Notes: generated by a model not told the origin, from the letters alone. Counted from the first letter of the stretch, positions 10,014 through 15,124 are shown. The stretch: DNA of 64,000 nucleotides from Candidatus Doudnabacteria bacterium (GCA_003151625.1 PLYC01000021.1:80235-144234), one strand, 5' to 3'. A program made the numbers and translations.

Positions 10014-10454
10014 CTATTTGCCAAGGGCTGCTAAAAATCCCTTGGCCTTGTTGTCGTCCCGCCAGCTCCGCCACTCGGCGGGGACATGGGCGGCTTTTCG
10101 GCCGCGGTACTCAAGCGCCGCCCCTGGATAACCGGAACTGCGGCCGCTTGTGGTGTCCCACATGGACACCGTCAGGTCACCAATAGTGACCTTTTTTGCC
10201 GAGGACGGAACGTCGCTCGGCCAGCCGGGTTTCAGGCAGTTGTCATTCCAACCACCCGTCCCCCGGAAAAGTTGCCGGAGGAGGTTGCGCGGGATTTTCA
10301 CCCGCTCTTTTTTGCCGCGAATGCGGCGGGCGGCGGCCAAAGTGCGCAGGGTGTGCTTTCCCTGGAACTTGGCTATCACCAGCTCAATCGACGGCTTTTC
10401 AATCTCGGCCACAAAGGTTGTGACCGAGTCGATCGGTTTCTTCACGTCGGCCAT
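10014..10454 (-). CDS. Hypothetical 146-aa protein, last gene of the Alba-MoxR-vWA operon
   Basis: Start MADVKK at 10454 with AAGAGGAG RBS. Sits 85 nt downstream of the vWA gene on the same strand. GC-rich. Confidence 0.5.
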   Translation of the reverse strand: MADVKKPIDSVTTFVAEIEKPSIELVIAKFQGKHTLRTLAAARRIRGKKERVKIPRNLLRQLFRGTGGWNDNCLKPGWPSDVPSSAKKVTIGDLTVSMWDTTSGRSSGYPGAALEYRGRKAAHVPAEWRSWRDDNKAKGFLAALGK

Positions 10455-10538
10455 TTTCTCTCCTCTTATGGACCGAAACGGATGGTGTTTTATTATTTGG
10501 TAACCATCCCCCAAACCCTTGTCCGGATTCTCACCGAA

Positions 10539-12416
10539 CTATTCTTCTGCGCCGAGATGCCAAGCGCGAACGAACTCCGGGAGTTCGTCTTTGGCCTTGA
10601 CAAACTGCTTGAGCGAGCCCATCTTACGGAACACGACGCCGTGGAGTTTAATCTCACAGCCGGTCTCCGAGTGAGCCTTTTCCAGCGAAACCGCCAAAGC
10701 TTTGCCGTCCTCAACGTACCCGTCTGTGAGTACAATGAGGTCGGCGGTTTCGTATCCGGCAAAGTCGTCCGGCAGGAGACCATAAATCTCCCCTACCGTC
10801 GTGCCGCCCGAATACAAACGCACTGGCGTCTCTTCAGCAAAATCCCGTATGGCCTGTACATCCTGGGTCGGGATTAAGACCCAAGAGGCTCCTCCGGAGA
10901 ACTGGCCAACCCCAAGCTTAATGCCCTGGGACTGGCCAACTTTTTCCGCCAGCTCGCCGCACACGCGGTACAGCTGGGAAAAAAGTTTATCATTCACCGA
11001 CCCGGAGGAGTCAATGAAAATGGCCATGAGGTGTTGTTCCTTATCCCGCCGACGGACACAGCGCCGCTTTAGAGGATCGGTCCCAAAAACTTCATCCTCC
11101 TGATAGCGACAAATTTCATCCGGAGATGAAACCGCATCTCCCGGCTGCCAGGAACGGAACCTTGGCATACCGCGACCGATTAACTTGGTGCGTTCGGCCA
11201 GAACGCGCTCAAGCATCCGGAGCAACGCCTCAAGGTTGTTGTCCTCAAAGCGCTTTTCCGGCGCCGATTCAACAGCACGGGGATCTCCCGCGCCACCACC
11301 GGTTTCGTTGCCGCGACTATTGCTTTCGGACGGACTTCCGTCCCCTCCCCCTTGGCTTTCGCTTCCGGGTTCGGGGTCGTCTTTGTCTTCCGGCTCTTTA
11401 GCATCAGCCTTGTCGCCTTTGCCTTTGGAGCCATCGGACTTTTTACCGTCCTCACCCTCTTTGCCGTCAGAGGGTTTTCCGTTTGAGTCAGACGACTCAC
11501 CATCACCCGACCCATCAGCGTCAGAGTCTCCGGAACCTTTGCCCTTACCCTTACCGAGCTTAGACTTTGATCCTTTCGACCCTTTACCCTGGCCAGATCC
11601 GTCACCGGATCCTTCCTCGCCAGAGCCTTCGCCTTCACCGCTCCCTTCTCCTGATCCTTGTGAACCAGTAGATGGATCTGCGGAAGGGTCTCCGCCCTTC
11701 CCTGCACCCTCGCCTTTCGGCGGTTGGTACTCTGGAGGCAAAGACCACGGCGGTGGACAATACTTGCGCAGTGCGTCCAAAACTTTCTGGAGCGCCTGGG
11801 TGCGCGAAAGTGAGCCCTGTCCATAACTCACTATCGCCTTGGCCGCTTCGCGAGCAGCATCTGCCAGCGGCTGGCTCACAAAACTCTCAATCAGCTGGCC
11901 GTAAATCTCCAACTGAAAGAGCGCTTCAATGAACGCCGCACACTGACCCTGTTTCCCGCTGGCTTCCAGCTCGGCAATGGACTTGCGCCCACCGCCTTGC
12001 CGGTTCCAAACGAAAAACCGGTTCACGCGTTCGCGAACATCCTGGCCGACGAACGTTGCGGCGTGTTCGTCGACAACTTGATCTTCCACCACGTTTAACA
12101 AAAATCGAACGTATGCAGTGGAAGATTCTCCCGGCGACAGCGGATCAGCAAAAATCTTGTACATTTCTTCGCCCGAGAGCGAAGTCTTGCCAATTTTTTT
12201 TGCTGCCCGGTCAAAATAAACGATATGACTGGCTTCATGAGCCGTTAACATCTCCACCATATCGTTTTTAGCCGAAACGGGAAGCTTCGACCAACGGGAG
12301 TCGGGGTCTAAAATGGTAATCTCGTTTCCGTCGGTGTGAGCCCCCGCGCCCACATTAACGGGTATCGCACGGCCCACCACGCGGCGGGCCAATTTTTCCA
12401 GCTTCTGGAGGTTCAT
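10539..12416 (-). CDS. DUF2201-type protein: N-terminal putative metallopeptidase (HExxH), long G/S/E/D/K-rich disordered linker, C-terminal von Willebrand A domain
   Basis: HEASH motif near the N-terminus. About 170 aa of low-complexity (GSGEGSGEGEG..KGSKGSK..). C-terminal ..AIFIDSSGSVND.. (DxSxS MIDAS) ..LIVLTDGY.. is a vWA domain. Adjacent to a MoxR ATPase, as is typical for the family. Confidence 0.7.
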   Translation of the reverse strand: MNLQKLEKLARRVVGRAIPVNVGAGAHTDGNEITILDPDSRWSKLPVSAKNDMVEMLTAHEASHIVYFDRAAKKIGKTSLSGEEMYKIFADPLSPGESSTAYVRFLLNVVEDQVVDEHAATFVGQDVRERVNRFFVWNRQGGGRKSIAELEASGKQGQCAAFIEALFQLEIYGQLIESFVSQPLADAAREAAKAIVSYGQGSLSRTQALQKVLDALRKYCPPPWSLPPEYQPPKGEGAGKGGDPSADPSTGSQGSGEGSGEGEGSGEEGSGDGSGQGKGSKGSKSKLGKGKGKGSGDSDADGSGDGESSDSNGKPSDGKEGEDGKKSDGSKGKGDKADAKEPEDKDDPEPGSESQGGGDGSPSESNSRGNETGGGAGDPRAVESAPEKRFEDNNLEALLRMLERVLAERTKLIGRGMPRFRSWQPGDAVSSPDEICRYQEDEVFGTDPLKRRCVRRRDKEQHLMAIFIDSSGSVNDKLFSQLYRVCGELAEKVGQSQGIKLGVGQFSGGASWVLIPTQDVQAIRDFAEETPVRLYSGGTTVGEIYGLLPDDFAGYETADLIVLTDGYVEDGKALAVSLEKAHSETGCEIKLHGVVFRKMGSLKQFVKAKDELPEFVRAWHLGAEE

Positions 12417-12569
12417 CTTTATCTCCTATTTCCAGCAGTTGTGGCCGCCCGCGAGGCGAACCTGCGTTGCAAATCCGATGCAACTTCGGTGGAGTAAACT
12501 CTTACTCCTGTTTGAGTTTTCTGTTCCCCTTCTCCCCCTCTGGGGGAGATGTCGAGTGCATCCGACTTG

Positions 12570-13915: not shown

Positions 13916-13918
13916 GGC

Positions 13919-14194
13919 TTACGCCTCCTTCACGGTCAGTTCGATTTCGACCCACGACACCGGGCGGTCGCCCGGTGCCGTCTCCTGGCCCCAACGGGCG
14001 CTGCCGCGTGACAGCGGCAAGCCCATATTGAGGGCCTTGTTCGCCGCGTCAAATGCGGCCGAGCAAAAGCGCCCGCGGGCGCGCAGGACGATGTTTTTTT
14101 GCCCCTCGCCGAAGCGAGTGGCTATCGCCAACGCGTAGTTGGCGATGTTCTTCTTGCCGACCACGATGGGTCGGCTCGTTACTGTCTGCTGCAT
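13919..14194 (-). CDS. Alba-domain DNA/RNA-binding protein
   Basis: IVVGKKNIANYALAIATRFGEGQKNIVLRARGRFCSAAFDAANKAL aligns motif-for-motif with archaeal Alba ([46 protein letters not shown]). AAGGAGG RBS present. Confidence 0.75.
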   Translation of the reverse strand: MQQTVTSRPIVVGKKNIANYALAIATRFGEGQKNIVLRARGRFCSAAFDAANKALNMGLPLSRGSARWGQETAPGDRPVSWVEIELTVKEA

Positions 14195-15124
14195 TTGGTC
14201 TAGCCTCCTTGGCTAGTTTGTCTTGTTGCCGCTGGACTAGTGTTTTGTTCGCTCCGATGGCAACTTCTCGGAACTAGGCTTTAGTTAAACAGCCATACAG
14301 AAAAAGGTAAAAATTTTACTCTTTATCTTTTTCCAATGAAAATTCAACATTATAATTGTCGGCAGCACCGTGGTTTCGTTATTTTTATTTTGGCCTTCAT
14401 CCCAAAAATGGAATAGCCTAAAATTACAAAACCACAACGCTGCCGACAACATTTAACACGCCTAAGACGAACTTAGGCAAAAATTAAAATCTTATATTGC
14501 CATAATTAAATACGCTTTTAACAAAAGTTAAAAACAAAAAATAATTATAGAGACGTTTTCAAGGTGCTACCTCACTACTCCTGCTGTAGCGGTAGCGAGG
14601 GCAGAAATATTTACCACAGGCGATAAAAATTTCCGCTTTGCACCTTTACTAAAACCTAATTACTATATTCTATTTTCTAACAAGGACTGTTCCCCTCACC
14701 ATCAATTAATGATGAAGGGTGCACTCATTGCTATGTTTATTCAGCAAGCGGTCAGAGGCGTGCTTTCCTGCGAAATACACCACTAAACACTTGTAACCTT
14801 GCTTACTTATAGCGGGGTTTGTTCTTCCCAATCCTTCCTGTCAGATCGGAATGGGGAAAATGTAATGGGTTATTCACTCCAGACATTAACCTTTAAACAA
14901 AACCTAAAGTAATATTCAGTTGTTAAATGTTAATCCTTATTTATGATTAACAAATGAGTATACATTAAACTTGACAAAACGTCAATAATATACTGATATA
15001 AATAGCAATAGAATCAATATATTTAGTATTTATTTGGCTTAATTAGATGTTAAAATGTCAGTTTATATTTGACAAGATTTATAAAAGGTGCTAAAATAAG
15101 GGTATAAGCTAATATTTTACTCCT

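What the first reader, a model, noticed from the sequence alone, without database searches (positions are those of the whole stretch)
10014..14230. Alba - MoxR AAA+ - metallopeptidase/vWA - small protein operon: candidate vWA-MoxR 'ternary' conflict system with an Alba-type third component
Seen in sequence:
- A four-gene co-directional operon on the minus strand. The Alba stop and MoxR start are 3 nt apart and share an RBS, so the two are translationally coupled.
- The Alba-like protein (13919..14194) matches the archaeal Alba core GKK..NY..A......G...IV..ARGR..S.A.D...
- The MoxR ATPase (12731..13915) carries Walker A GPPGTGKT and Walker B VVDEAN.
- The vWA protein (10539..12416) has an N-terminal HExxH, a ~170-aa G/S/E/D/K low-complexity linker and a C-terminal MIDAS vWA domain. 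This is the DUF2201 architecture.
- A 146-aa unknown protein (10014..10454) closes the operon.

Established knowledge: MoxR-vWA pairs are widespread. They are sometimes built into NTP-dependent 'ternary' conflict systems in which a third associated protein supplies the effector or sensor.

Inference: Alba is a nucleic-acid-binding fold that is rare in bacteria. Its coupling to a MoxR-vWA pair inside a horizontally acquired GC-rich island suggests a nucleic-acid-directed defense or regulatory module. I am not aware of this combination having been described.
Basis: partly seen in the sequence, partly recalled or inferred. Interest (0 to 1): 0.85.

Follow-up and report, generated by a model that had tools for sequence, protein, structure and literature searches.

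The report
Alba–MoxR–vWA module with structured RNA
A GC-rich island in an uncultivated bacterium carries a rare, recurrent gene set (an archaeal-type Alba nucleic-acid binder, a MoxR-class ATPase, a vWA/MIDAS protein and a small basic protein) that always travels with a previously unrecorded structured RNA of about 0.9 kb, so it looks like a new RNA-protein machine, not a protein-only defence cassette.

Summary
The four ORFs exist as described. Alba, AAA_5/MoxR and vWA-MIDAS identities hold up. The claimed "DUF2201 architecture" does not: there is no Pfam hit. The N-terminal HExxH domain is an orphan family of 10 representatives among 1.84 billion proteins, and its fold is only weakly zincin-like.

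The Alba–MoxR–vWA–p146 linkage is real and recurrent. It occurs in eight sequence-distinct lineages. Three of them carry tandem-Alba fusions, one carries three p146 paralogues, and the genomic contexts differ.

The ORF-free DNA downstream of p146 encodes a conserved structured RNA on the cassette strand, at window ~8880..8014.
- A covariance model of its 166-nt 3' domain finds nine copies in 8 of 8 complete cassettes.
- Five of those copies, in four lineages, were not used to build the model.
- 94.9% of cells are paired, and 22 of 29 pairs show compensatory changes.
- In one lineage the RNA lies between Alba and MoxR, and is duplicated.
- There is no Rfam, PADLOC or viral match.

My best reading is an RNP: Alba and the basic p146 bind the RNA, and the MoxR–vWA pair assembles or remodels the particle. 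Its biological role (conflict, mobile-element maintenance or other) is unknown. It is not a member of the published vWA-MoxR ternary systems.

The parts
13919..14194 (-). Alba-family nucleic-acid-binding protein (91 aa, pI 10.3). It keeps the GKK...NY...ARGR core.
   Evidence: Pfam Alba scores 24.5 bits against a cutoff of 25. NCBIfam AlbA gives E=7e-11. The family profile matches PDB Alba 2z7c_A at E=2.6e-13 over residues 8-89. Orthologues score above the Pfam cutoff, e.g. L014 at 34.5 bits. Tandem two-domain versions occur in L018, L019 and L025.
12731..13915 (-). MoxR-class AAA+ ATPase of the AAA_5 type (394 aa). It starts 3 nt after the Alba stop. The AAA+ core is about residues 1-245, followed by a conserved C-terminal extension of about 150 aa with no family match.
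   Evidence: Pfam AAA_5 scores 49.3 bits against a cutoff of 22. There is a partial GvpN match at E=2e-11. Walker A, Walker B, the STGND sensor and the ELDRY Arg-finger region are invariant in three orthologues. The best PDB sequence hit is midasin, over the P-loop region only.
12417..12730 (-). 314-nt MoxR-vWA spacer. It holds a hairpin followed by a T-rich run (12643-12694), which is repeated after the RNA at 7966-8017. It also holds a ~200-nt element repeated after p146 (9780-9968).
   Evidence: This feature is specific to this lineage: the exact core was not found in the other loci held at that point.
10539..12416 (-). vWA protein (625 aa). Residues 1-235 form an N-terminal helical HExxH domain (11712-12416). 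A net-acidic G/S-rich linker of about 170 aa follows. The C-terminal vWA domain has a complete MIDAS motif (about 10539-11054).
10014..10454 (-). p146, a small basic protein (pI 10.35; N-terminal half 11.3) with the conserved motif AAARRI..KK.RVKIPRNLLRQL.R.TGGW. No family or fold match.
8014..8880 (-). Conserved structured non-coding RNA (core about 0.87 kb). Its 3' domain of 166 model positions lies at 8014-8182. A hairpin with loop CUAGCCA lies at about 8362-8381.
   Evidence: RNAalifold predicts 54 pairs, 39 with compensatory changes. 90.7% of cells are paired, against 35-44% with slid partners. Model R1 hits the window at 152 bits. It also hits L019 twice and L020, L021 and L025 once each, none of which were used in training. 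On nine sequences 94.9% of cells are paired and 22 of 29 pairs covary. The conservation profile gives the extent. The MFE z-score is -5.6. No protein-level conservation was found here. No Rfam match.
8973..9002 (-). Candidate sigma-70-like promoter for the RNA (TTGTCA-18-TACAAT, 10 of 12 matches).
   Evidence: This is a consensus scan only. It is consistent with conservation starting at about 8880 and with the 1,020-nt spacing of the two RNA copies in L019.
7966..8017 (-). Terminator-like hairpin immediately after the RNA 3' domain. It is the second copy of the repeat found after MoxR.
6721..7806 (-). p361, an accessory island gene. Its central domain is shared with a gene downstream of the RNA in L001, with a gene in the variant p146 locus L023, and with jumbo-phage hypothetical proteins.
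   Evidence: tblastn and blastp results. phrog_23674 matches at E=1e-10. Phage tblastn hits. It is not present in all lineages.

Best explanation
The locus is a horizontally spreading five-part module. Its parts are an Alba protein, a MoxR-class AAA_5 ATPase, a vWA/MIDAS protein, a small basic protein (p146), and a dedicated structured RNA of about 0.9 kb transcribed from the same strand. The vWA protein also has an N-terminal HExxH domain and an acidic linker.

Proposed mechanism (inferred, not shown): the RNA is the scaffold of a ribonucleoprotein particle.
- Alba binds it as a dimer. Some lineages have fused two Alba domains into one chain.
- The Arg/Lys-rich p146 also binds it.
- The vWA protein docks through its MIDAS site onto an acidic residue of a partner.
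- The MoxR hexamer spends ATP to assemble, remodel or release that partner on the RNP. This is how known MoxR-vWA pairs mature their clients, and how midasin (AAA_5 ring, acidic linker, MIDAS) strips factors from pre-ribosomal RNPs.
- The HExxH domain may trim a protein partner but is dispensable, because it has been lost in two lineages.

The biological purpose is unknown. Patchy distribution and foreign composition suggest an accessory or conflict-related role.
For: Shown:
- The four protein families are always adjacent, in the order Alba, MoxR, vWA, p146, in eight lineages.
- The RNA 3' domain is found in 8 of 8 complete cassettes and nowhere else in about 210 kb of fetched DNA, including the archaeal Alba loci.
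- The RNA has strong covariation and a fold z-score of -5.6.
- The RNA moves relative to the genes but stays in the module. In L019 there are two copies between Alba and MoxR. In L021 no same-strand gene follows the RNA, so there it is not a 5' leader.
- Flanking accessory genes vary.
- Alba is a bona fide DNA/RNA-binding fold by profile. Alba and p146 both have pI above 10.
- Tandem-Alba fusions occur in three lineages.
- MIDAS is invariant in 9 of 9.
- The cassette proteins are 55-72% identical between lineages whose flanking TrmB genes are only 30-38% identical. GC3 is far above the host's.

From established knowledge: MoxR-vWA pairs act as chaperone and adaptor (summarised in PMC7159879). 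My own knowledge, not tested here: Alba-fold proteins Rpp20/Rpp25 bind RNase P/MRP RNA, and midasin remodels pre-60S particles.
Against: - No experiment or transcript data show that the RNA is expressed or that any of the proteins binds it.
- Co-occurrence in eight lineages could partly reflect shared descent, since several lineages share the TrmB-adjacent position.
- The RNA ends are inferred from conservation and a consensus promoter only.
- Alba also binds DNA, so it could be a regulator or nucleoid protein of the island.
- p146 has no recognisable RNA-binding fold.
- The most divergent vWA/AAA_5 pair (L017) shows no Alba on its short contig.
Confidence: 0.5

Rival explanations
1. One reading: a protein-only, NTP-dependent conflict (anti-phage or anti-plasmid) system. 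Alba senses or binds invading nucleic acid. The MoxR-vWA pair gates an effector, either the HExxH protease or p146. The RNA is incidental.
For: - Foreign GC and GC3, and a patchy, rare distribution: 1 hit among 185,579 species representatives.
- A HEPN/nucleotidyltransferase toxin-antitoxin pair lies nearby in one lineage.
- Alba domains occur in the SAMD9 immune proteins and their bacterial relatives (titles and abstracts listed).
- MoxR-vWA cores are used in conflict systems.
Against: - There is no PADLOC hit beyond P-loop matches.
- None of the defining third components or vWA C-terminal effector domains of the ternary systems is present.
- The only candidate enzymatic effector, the HExxH site, is lost in two lineages while the rest is kept.
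- It does not explain why a covarying ~0.9-kb RNA is invariant in the module.
- A defence role could still be true of the RNP. That would merge this rival with the best explanation.
Confidence: 0.2
2. An ordinary MoxR-vWA chaperone pair that matures a protein client (p146, or a host or metal enzyme). Alba is a DNA-binding regulator or nucleoid protein of the island. The RNA is an unrelated neighbour or a long cis-regulatory leader of whatever gene follows it.
For: - Most characterised MoxR-vWA pairs act on protein clients.
- In five lineages a same-strand gene starts 100-400 nt after the RNA. In L019 the RNA precedes MoxR.
- Alba binds DNA as well as RNA.
Against: - The genes after the RNA are not homologous across lineages. 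In L021 the next genes are on the opposite strand.
- A terminator-like hairpin follows the RNA in the window.
- At about 0.9 kb, with many covarying helices and a tandem duplication in L019, it is atypical for a leader.
- The RNA is absent from the variant p146 locus that lacks Alba, MoxR and vWA.
Confidence: 0.15
3. The whole GC-rich island (window ~5000-14300) is a degraded or cryptic mobile element, such as an integrated plasmid, virus or satellite. The cassette and RNA serve the element's own maintenance, replication or packaging.
For: - The island extends beyond the cassette and includes p361, which shares a domain with jumbo-phage proteins.
- Cassette proteins are more conserved than the flanking genes, and insertion next to TrmB recurs.
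- High GC3 is retained in several AT-richer hosts.
Against: - No integrase, replication initiator, capsid or terminase was recognised.
- No flanking direct repeats or tRNA were found.
- There is no hit to the Alba family or the RNA motif in 2.9 million viral contigs.
- In L019 the module sits in a 311-kb contig of uniform GC.
Confidence: 0.1

Closest known systems
MoxR-vWA chaperone/adaptor pairs (CbbQ-CbbO, NorQ-NorD, CoxD-CoxE, RavA-ViaA, MoxR with BatA/BatB)
   Same: An AAA+ ATPase of the MoxR class (AAA_5 type, nearest to the GvpN/CbbQ/NorQ group by partial match) is encoded next to a protein with a C-terminal vWA domain and an intact MIDAS motif.
   Different: - The known pairs act on protein or metalloenzyme clients and have no dedicated RNA.
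- Here the pair is locked to an Alba protein, an orphan basic protein and a ~0.9-kb structured RNA.
- The vWA N-terminal domain and the ATPase C-terminal extension have no family match.
vWA-MoxR 'ternary' conflict systems (Kaur, Burroughs, Iyer, Aravind 2020; PMC7159879)
   Same: A MoxR-vWA core plus further conserved partners, with a rare and patchy distribution.
   Different: - The third component is none of VMAP, iSTAND, FtsH or beta-propeller.
- There are no variable effector domains C-terminal to the vWA domain.
- The bpMoxR model is not matched (16.6 bits against 27).
- The hosts are small-genome uncultivated bacteria, not the multicellular lineages in which those systems are enriched.
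DUF2201 proteins (PF13203 putative metallopeptidase N-domain plus PF09967 vWA-like domain)
   Same: The overall layout is the same: an HExxH-bearing N-terminal domain and a C-terminal vWA domain, next to an AAA_5 ATPase.
   Different: - Neither Pfam model hits at E<=1.
- A profile search of 1.84 billion representatives finds only 10 relatives of the N-terminal domain, all within this family.
- A long acidic linker is inserted.
- HExxH is lost in two members.
Midasin/Rea1 (eukaryotic AAA_5 ring, D/E-rich linker, MIDAS domain)
   Same: - The best PDB sequence hit of the ATPase is midasin, over the P-loop region.
- The same three elements are present here, split over two proteins: an AAA_5 motor, a net-acidic low-complexity linker and a MIDAS domain.
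- Midasin's substrate is an RNP (my own knowledge).
   Different: - Midasin is a single ~5,000-aa chain with six AAA modules.
- The homology here is limited to generic AAA_5 and vWA features.
- No ribosome-biogenesis context is evident.
Ro60/Rsr-Y RNA and OLE RNA-OapA/B/C (bacterial RNPs built on a dedicated non-coding RNA)
   Same: A dedicated structured RNA is encoded beside its presumptive protein partners. Ro60 also contains a vWA/MIDAS domain (my own knowledge).
   Different: - There is no TROVE domain and no Y-RNA, OLE or other Rfam match.
- The RNA is several times longer than Y RNAs.
- The partners are different: Alba, MoxR and p146.
Archaeal Alba (Sso10b) and eukaryotic Alba-fold Rpp20/Rpp25
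   Same: The family profile aligns end to end with solved archaeal Alba proteins, including the GKK and ARGR motifs. About 37% identity to archaeal Albas.
   Different: - It is bacterial and sits in a MoxR-vWA cassette.
- The archaeal relatives fetched (L015, L016) have unrelated neighbours and no copy of the RNA.
- Some members are tandem two-domain fusions.

Membership tests
Alba (PF01918 / NCBIfam AlbA) | Significant match to the family model over the whole ~85-aa domain | tested here: met
   The window protein alone scores 24.5 bits against a cutoff of 25, over residues 10-52. AlbA gives E=7e-11. A profile of the nine orthologues matches 11 solved Alba chains at E of 1e-9 to 3e-13, spanning query 8-89. 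Orthologue L014 scores 34.5 bits, above the cutoff.
Alba (PF01918 / NCBIfam AlbA) | Conserved basic nucleic-acid-binding motifs (GKK near the N-terminus; ARGR loop) | tested here: met
   G13, K15, R38, A39, R40 and G41 are invariant in the family alignment and align to the same motifs of 2z7c and 1nfh.
Alba (PF01918 / NCBIfam AlbA) | Alba/IF3-C-like beta-alpha-beta-alpha-beta-beta fold | not tested
The fold is inferred from the full-length profile alignment to solved Albas.
MoxR-class AAA+ (AAA_5, PF07728) | AAA_5 model above the gathering score, with Walker A, Walker B, sensor-1 and Arg-finger motifs | tested here: met
   AAA_5 scores 49.3 bits against 22, over residues 23-159. GPPGTGKT, VVDEAN, STGND and AELDRYD are invariant in three orthologues. 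AAA_3, the model for MoxR proper, is not met (15.1 bits against 27).
vWA / MIDAS | vWA domain with the DxSxS...T...D metal-ion-dependent adhesion site | tested here: met
   DSSGS, GGT and LTDG are invariant in 9 of 9 homologues. VWA_2 scores 22.3 bits (below the cutoff of 27) for the window protein, while L014 scores 27.1. VWA_CoxE is on record for P0019. PDB BatB matches at E=1e-4.
DUF2201 (PF13203 N-domain plus PF09967 vWA-like) | Match to either Pfam model | tested here: not met
   There is no hit at E<=1 for the 625-aa protein. The exhaustive profile search of the N-terminal domain returns only its own family of 10 proteins.
Zincin metallopeptidase fold | HExxH helix plus a third ligand in a zincin-like fold | tested here: inconclusive
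   - HEASH and VED..D are conserved in 7 of 9 and lost together in L018 and L019.
- The best Foldseek E-value is 0.81.
- Active-site geometry could not be inspected.
vWA-MoxR ternary conflict systems (PMC7159879) | A third core component that is VMAP, iSTAND, FtsH-type or a beta-propeller fused to the vWA domain; variable effector domains C-terminal to the vWA domain | tested here: not met
   No such domains were found in Pfam scans of any cassette protein. The vWA domain is the C-terminal domain. bpMoxR scores 16.6 bits against 27. Definitions were read.
Known anti-phage defence systems (PADLOC-DB 2.0) | Significant full-length match of any component to a defence-system model | tested here: not met
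   The only hits are P-loop-only matches of the ATPase (IetA at 21.6 bits over residues 18-48). There is nothing for Alba, vWA, p146 or p361.
Any Rfam 15 RNA family (including OLE, GOLLD, ROOL, HEARO, Y RNA, RNase P, group I/II introns) | Covariance-model match at the gathering score | tested here: not met
   There are 0 matches at the gathering score in the whole window. At E<=1 on 7700-15200 there are only sub-threshold chance hits.
CobS/CobT-type chelatase pair | Match to the CobS and CobT family models | tested here: not met
   The only link is a 30.5-bit match of the ATPase to the PHROG 'porphyrin biosynthesis' family. There is no CobT or CobS Pfam hit.

The most novel reading that the evidence does not exclude
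This is a previously unknown class of bacterial ribonucleoprotein machine. A ~0.9-kb structured RNA is packaged by an archaeal-derived Alba dimer and a novel basic protein. A MoxR-vWA motor actively assembles or remodels the particle, as a split, miniature analogue of midasin acting on an RNP. The module spreads horizontally among uncultivated small-genome bacteria, and the RNA itself may carry the functional activity (scaffold, guide or catalyst).
Probability: 0.4. Interest if true: 0.92.

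Novelty: new variant of a known kind. Interest (0 to 1): 0.8.

Why it matters
- MoxR-vWA pairs are among the most widespread and least understood AAA+ systems. Almost all known clients are proteins. A version permanently tied to a nucleic-acid-binding Alba protein and a dedicated large structured RNA would give a defined, testable substrate. It would be the first RNP-directed bacterial MoxR system.
- It adds a candidate new large non-coding RNA class, about 0.9 kb with extensive covariation. Few such RNAs are known, and most have unknown functions.
- It gives a concrete functional context for the sporadic bacterial Alba proteins.
- Even if its role turns out to be defence, an RNA-containing MoxR-vWA system would be a new design.

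Tried and rejected
- Rfam at the gathering score and at E<=1: nothing. tRNA/tmRNA scan: none.
- Tandem repeats or a CRISPR-like array in the ORF-free DNA: none.
- PADLOC: only P-loop noise.
- PHROGs: only generic ATPase hits, plus a domain of p361.
- Viral contigs: no Alba-family relative and no copy of the RNA 3' motif.
- Phage genomes: no relative of the vWA N-terminal domain.
- DUF2201, CobT and TROVE: no Pfam hits.
- The word-indexed protein search for the vWA N-terminal domain found only 2 proteins, so I used the exhaustive search.
- The AFDB Foldseek library was unavailable.
- A coding explanation for the ORF-free region: tblastx found no protein-level conservation there.
- A remnant of the ~350-aa upstream gene family in the window: none.
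- The MoxR-vWA spacer as a conserved element: its hairpin core was not found in the other loci held at that point, and the spacer is short in L018, L019 and L025.
- Literature searches for Alba+MoxR+vWA and for MoxR plus structured RNA returned nothing relevant.
- Host taxonomy could not be established. The only named record is 'bacterium isolate AMR_MDS_2609', from activated sludge.

Full report
**1. Observation**

- Alba-like, 13919..14194 (91 aa)
- AAA+ ATPase, 12731..13915 (394 aa)
- vWA protein, 10539..12416 (625 aa)
- a 146-aa ORF, 10014..10454

The Alba stop and ATPase start read TAA-gcc-ATG, with AAGGAGG inside the end of the Alba gene. The host is bacterial: rpoB, a Mur ligase, uvrB and ABC transporter genes flank the region, and GC is about 42%. 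The cassette has GC 0.56-0.64 and GC3 0.58-0.82, against 0.41-0.52 for host genes.

Two points needed correction. First, a 314-nt spacer with a terminator-like hairpin separates the ATPase and vWA genes, so a single tight operon is not shown in this lineage. Second, the "DUF2201 architecture" is not supported by any HMM.

**2. The proteins**

*Alba.* The window protein is marginal against Pfam (24.5 bits, cutoff 25) and clearer against NCBIfam AlbA (E=7e-11, N-terminal half). A profile of its nine database relatives aligns end to end with solved archaeal Alba proteins (2z7c_A E=2.6e-13, 1nfh, 2bky, 1h0x and others). The alignment covers the GKK and ARGR motifs. I accept it as a true, divergent Alba.

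*ATPase.* It matches AAA_5 (49.3 bits, cutoff 22), with a partial GvpN match and intact Walker A, Walker B, sensor-1 and Arg-finger motifs. A conserved C-terminal extension of about 150 aa has no family. Its best PDB sequence match is midasin, over the P-loop region only.

*vWA protein.* It has a weak but real vWA match (VWA_2 at 22.3 bits, BatB at E=1e-4). The DSSGS...GGT...LTDG MIDAS motif is invariant in all nine homologues examined.

Its N-terminal 235 residues form an orphan family. A profile search of 1.84 billion representative proteins found only 10 members, all at E<1e-30.

HExxH and a downstream VED..D motif are conserved in seven of nine homologues. Both are lost together in two. 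This fits a real but dispensable metal site. I rate "zincin-like" as plausible and unproven.

The linker is 62-220 aa long, G/S-rich and net acidic.

**3. Recurrence**

The Alba family is very rare. The protein database of 5.8 billion holds nine clusters, and 185,579 species-representative genomes hold one locus.

Contigs carrying relatives of Alba, of the vWA N-terminal domain or of p146 show the same gene order (Alba, ATPase, vWA, p146) in eight sequence-distinct lineages. These are the window, the L001 group, L014, L018, L019, L020, L021/22 and L025.

Variations argue for function, not accident:
- Three lineages carry a two-domain tandem Alba. This is a covalent version of the Alba dimer.
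- L019 has three p146 paralogues.
- The flanking accessory genes differ.
- The genomic context differs. Six lineages are TrmB-adjacent: the window, the L001 group and L018, plus the partial contigs L009, L012 and L013. L014 and L019 are not, and L019 sits in a 311-kb contig of uniform 58% GC.

Cassette proteins are 55-72% identical between lineages whose neighbouring TrmB genes are only 30-38% identical. The archaeal Albas closest to this family have unrelated neighbours.

**4. The missed component: a structured RNA**

In every lineage a stretch of 1.3-2.4 kb without ORFs follows p146. Sensitive blastn showed a short conserved block near its end.

*Alignment of four lineages.*
- It revealed hairpins whose stems change by compensatory substitutions while their loops stay constant. 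An example is the CUAGCCA loop at window ~8362-8381.
- RNAalifold on 460 columns predicted 54 pairs, 39 with double changes.
- Pair counting gave 90.7% paired cells against 35-44% when partners are slid. None of 500 shuffles reached the observed values.
- These figures are inflated, because the structure was derived from the same alignment.

*Independent test.* I built a covariance model (R1: 166 positions, 29 pairs) of the 3' domain from those four sequences.
- It finds full-length matches on the cassette strand in lineages it had never seen. L019 has two: 68 bits (E=3.5e-18) and 39.9 bits (E=7e-10). L020 scores 101.6 bits, L021 123 bits and L025 51.7 bits.
- It finds nothing in the archaeal Alba loci, in the rest of the window or in the other loci.
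- On all nine copies 94.9% of cells pair, and 22 of 29 pairs show compensatory changes with up to six pair types per position. The slid controls give 26-41%.
- That alignment is fitted to the model, so it leans towards the structure. Five of the nine rows were not used to build the model.

*Position in the module.*
- In L019 the two copies lie 1,020 nt apart, between the tandem-Alba gene and the ATPase gene. So the RNA keeps its membership of the module while changing position.
- In L021 the next genes are on the opposite strand, so there the RNA is not a 5' leader.

*Extent.*
- A nine-sequence alignment shows conservation from window ~8880 down to 8014. Further conserved helices lie upstream.
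- A sigma-70-like promoter match lies at 9002..8973, and a terminator-like hairpin at 8017..7966. Together these suggest a transcript of about 1 kb.

*Other properties.*
- The 882-nt core folds 5.6 standard deviations better than shuffles.
- No protein-level conservation was found in the region.
- There is no Rfam family, even at E<=1.
- There is no copy of the 3' motif in viral contigs.

**5. Mechanism**

*Shown:* five co-inherited components. Two of the proteins are basic, and one of those belongs to a known DNA/RNA-binding fold. The MIDAS site and the ATPase motifs are invariant.

*Inferred:* the RNA scaffolds an RNP bound by Alba (as a dimer) and p146. The vWA protein docks by MIDAS onto an acidic residue of a partner. 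The MoxR hexamer uses ATP to assemble, remodel or release it.

This follows the general model for MoxR-vWA pairs (PMC7159879). It also echoes midasin (AAA_5 motor, acidic linker, MIDAS), which acts on pre-ribosomal RNPs (my own knowledge).

The HExxH domain may process a partner, but it is dispensable in two lineages. I put about 0.5 on the RNP reading.

The biological purpose is open. Foreign composition, rarity and a nearby HEPN/nucleotidyltransferase pair in one lineage are compatible with a conflict role. No defence model matches.

**6. Comparison with known systems**

It works like a MoxR-vWA chaperone pair, and the core proteins pass the AAA_5 and MIDAS tests. It fails the tests for the following:
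- DUF2201
- the published vWA-MoxR ternary conflict systems (no VMAP, iSTAND, FtsH or beta-propeller; no effector domains after the vWA domain; bpMoxR not matched)
- PADLOC systems
- CobS/CobT
- Ro60/TROVE
- every Rfam family

Within the searchable library I found no description of an Alba-MoxR-vWA association or of this RNA. That library is incomplete, so prior description elsewhere cannot be excluded.

**7. Verdict**

The sequence observations are largely correct. The interpretation as a "ternary conflict system with DUF2201 architecture" is not supported as stated.

The locus is a rare, horizontally spreading MoxR-vWA variant locked to Alba, an orphan basic protein and a new structured RNA of about 0.9 kb. 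I class it conservatively as a new variant of a known kind (MoxR-vWA systems). There is a substantial chance (about 0.4) that it represents a new class of RNP machine.

Noticed in passing
window 7966-8017 and 12643-12694 (minus strand): A 52-nt repeat (73% identical) forms a hairpin (GGAGAUAAAGUU/AACUUUUAUUUCC, loop UGCAC) followed by a T-rich run. One copy sits just after the ATPase stop and the other just after the RNA 3' domain. The exact 18-nt core occurs twice in the window, against 0.04 expected by chance. It was not found in the other loci held at that point. It probably marks shared terminators.
   Followed up: partly
window 12417-12690 and 9780-9968 (minus strand): The ATPase-vWA spacer and the DNA just after p146 share an element of about 200 nt (69% identity). 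It includes the exact core GCTAYGGCGGACRAGTCGG, which occurs twice in the window against 0.00 expected. A 22-nt inverted repeat (9864-9885 / 9946-9967) brackets the second copy. The function is unknown.
   Followed up: partly
window 6721-7806 (minus strand): p361, a GC-rich island gene, has a central domain of about 90 aa matching phrog_23674 and hypothetical proteins of jumbo phages (CBB, GAP32, BF, Astolliot). Relatives lie downstream of the RNA in L001 (158 aa) and in the variant locus L023 (264 aa).
   Followed up: partly
L023 1840-4824 and L024: This is a variant neighbourhood. A p146-family protein (163 aa) sits next to a 604-aa classical AAA (PF00004) protein, a radical-SAM gene and a p361-like gene. 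It has no Alba, no vWA and no R1 RNA, yet an ORF-free stretch of 1.3 kb again follows p146.
   Followed up: partly
L021 280-1326; L018 3288-4607 and 4803-5930; L014 885-1931: A family of ~350-440-aa proteins with no Pfam match lies directly upstream of Alba in three lineages. L018 has two paralogues, and the gene is split in L014. It is absent from the window, with no remnant detectable.
   Followed up: partly
window 15125-15967 (+) and 15964-18303 (-); also L001, L009, L012, L013, L018: A TrmB-family regulator gene of host-like GC is transcribed divergently from Alba in six lineages. In the window and L009 a large GNAT-domain protein gene accompanies it. The TrmB proteins are only 30-38% identical while cassette proteins are 55-72% identical. 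This means either a preferred insertion site or an unrecognised functional link.
   Followed up: partly
window 14356-14449: A 30-nt inverted repeat (83% complementary, 34-nt spacer) lies in the 930-nt ORF-free gap between Alba and TrmB. It gave only chance-level Rfam hits.
   Followed up: no
window 9003-10013 (minus strand): About 1 kb between p146 and the putative RNA promoter has no long ORF and no detectable conservation across lineages. Its content is unexplained.
   Followed up: no
L001 13735-14426 and 3290-3682: In the L001 lineage a HEPN/nucleotidyltransferase toxin-antitoxin-like pair lies a few kb downstream of the module. A 23S-rRNA-intervening-sequence-protein gene lies between TrmB and Alba.
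   Followed up: no
window 5000-8000 and 10000-14300; L018 2000-13500: The GC-rich island is larger than the cassette. It is about 9 kb in the window and about 11.5 kb in L018, and is interrupted by the less GC-rich RNA region. High GC3 persists in several AT-richer hosts, even though the cassette copies are only about 64-76% identical at the DNA level. This lack of amelioration is unexplained.
   Followed up: partly
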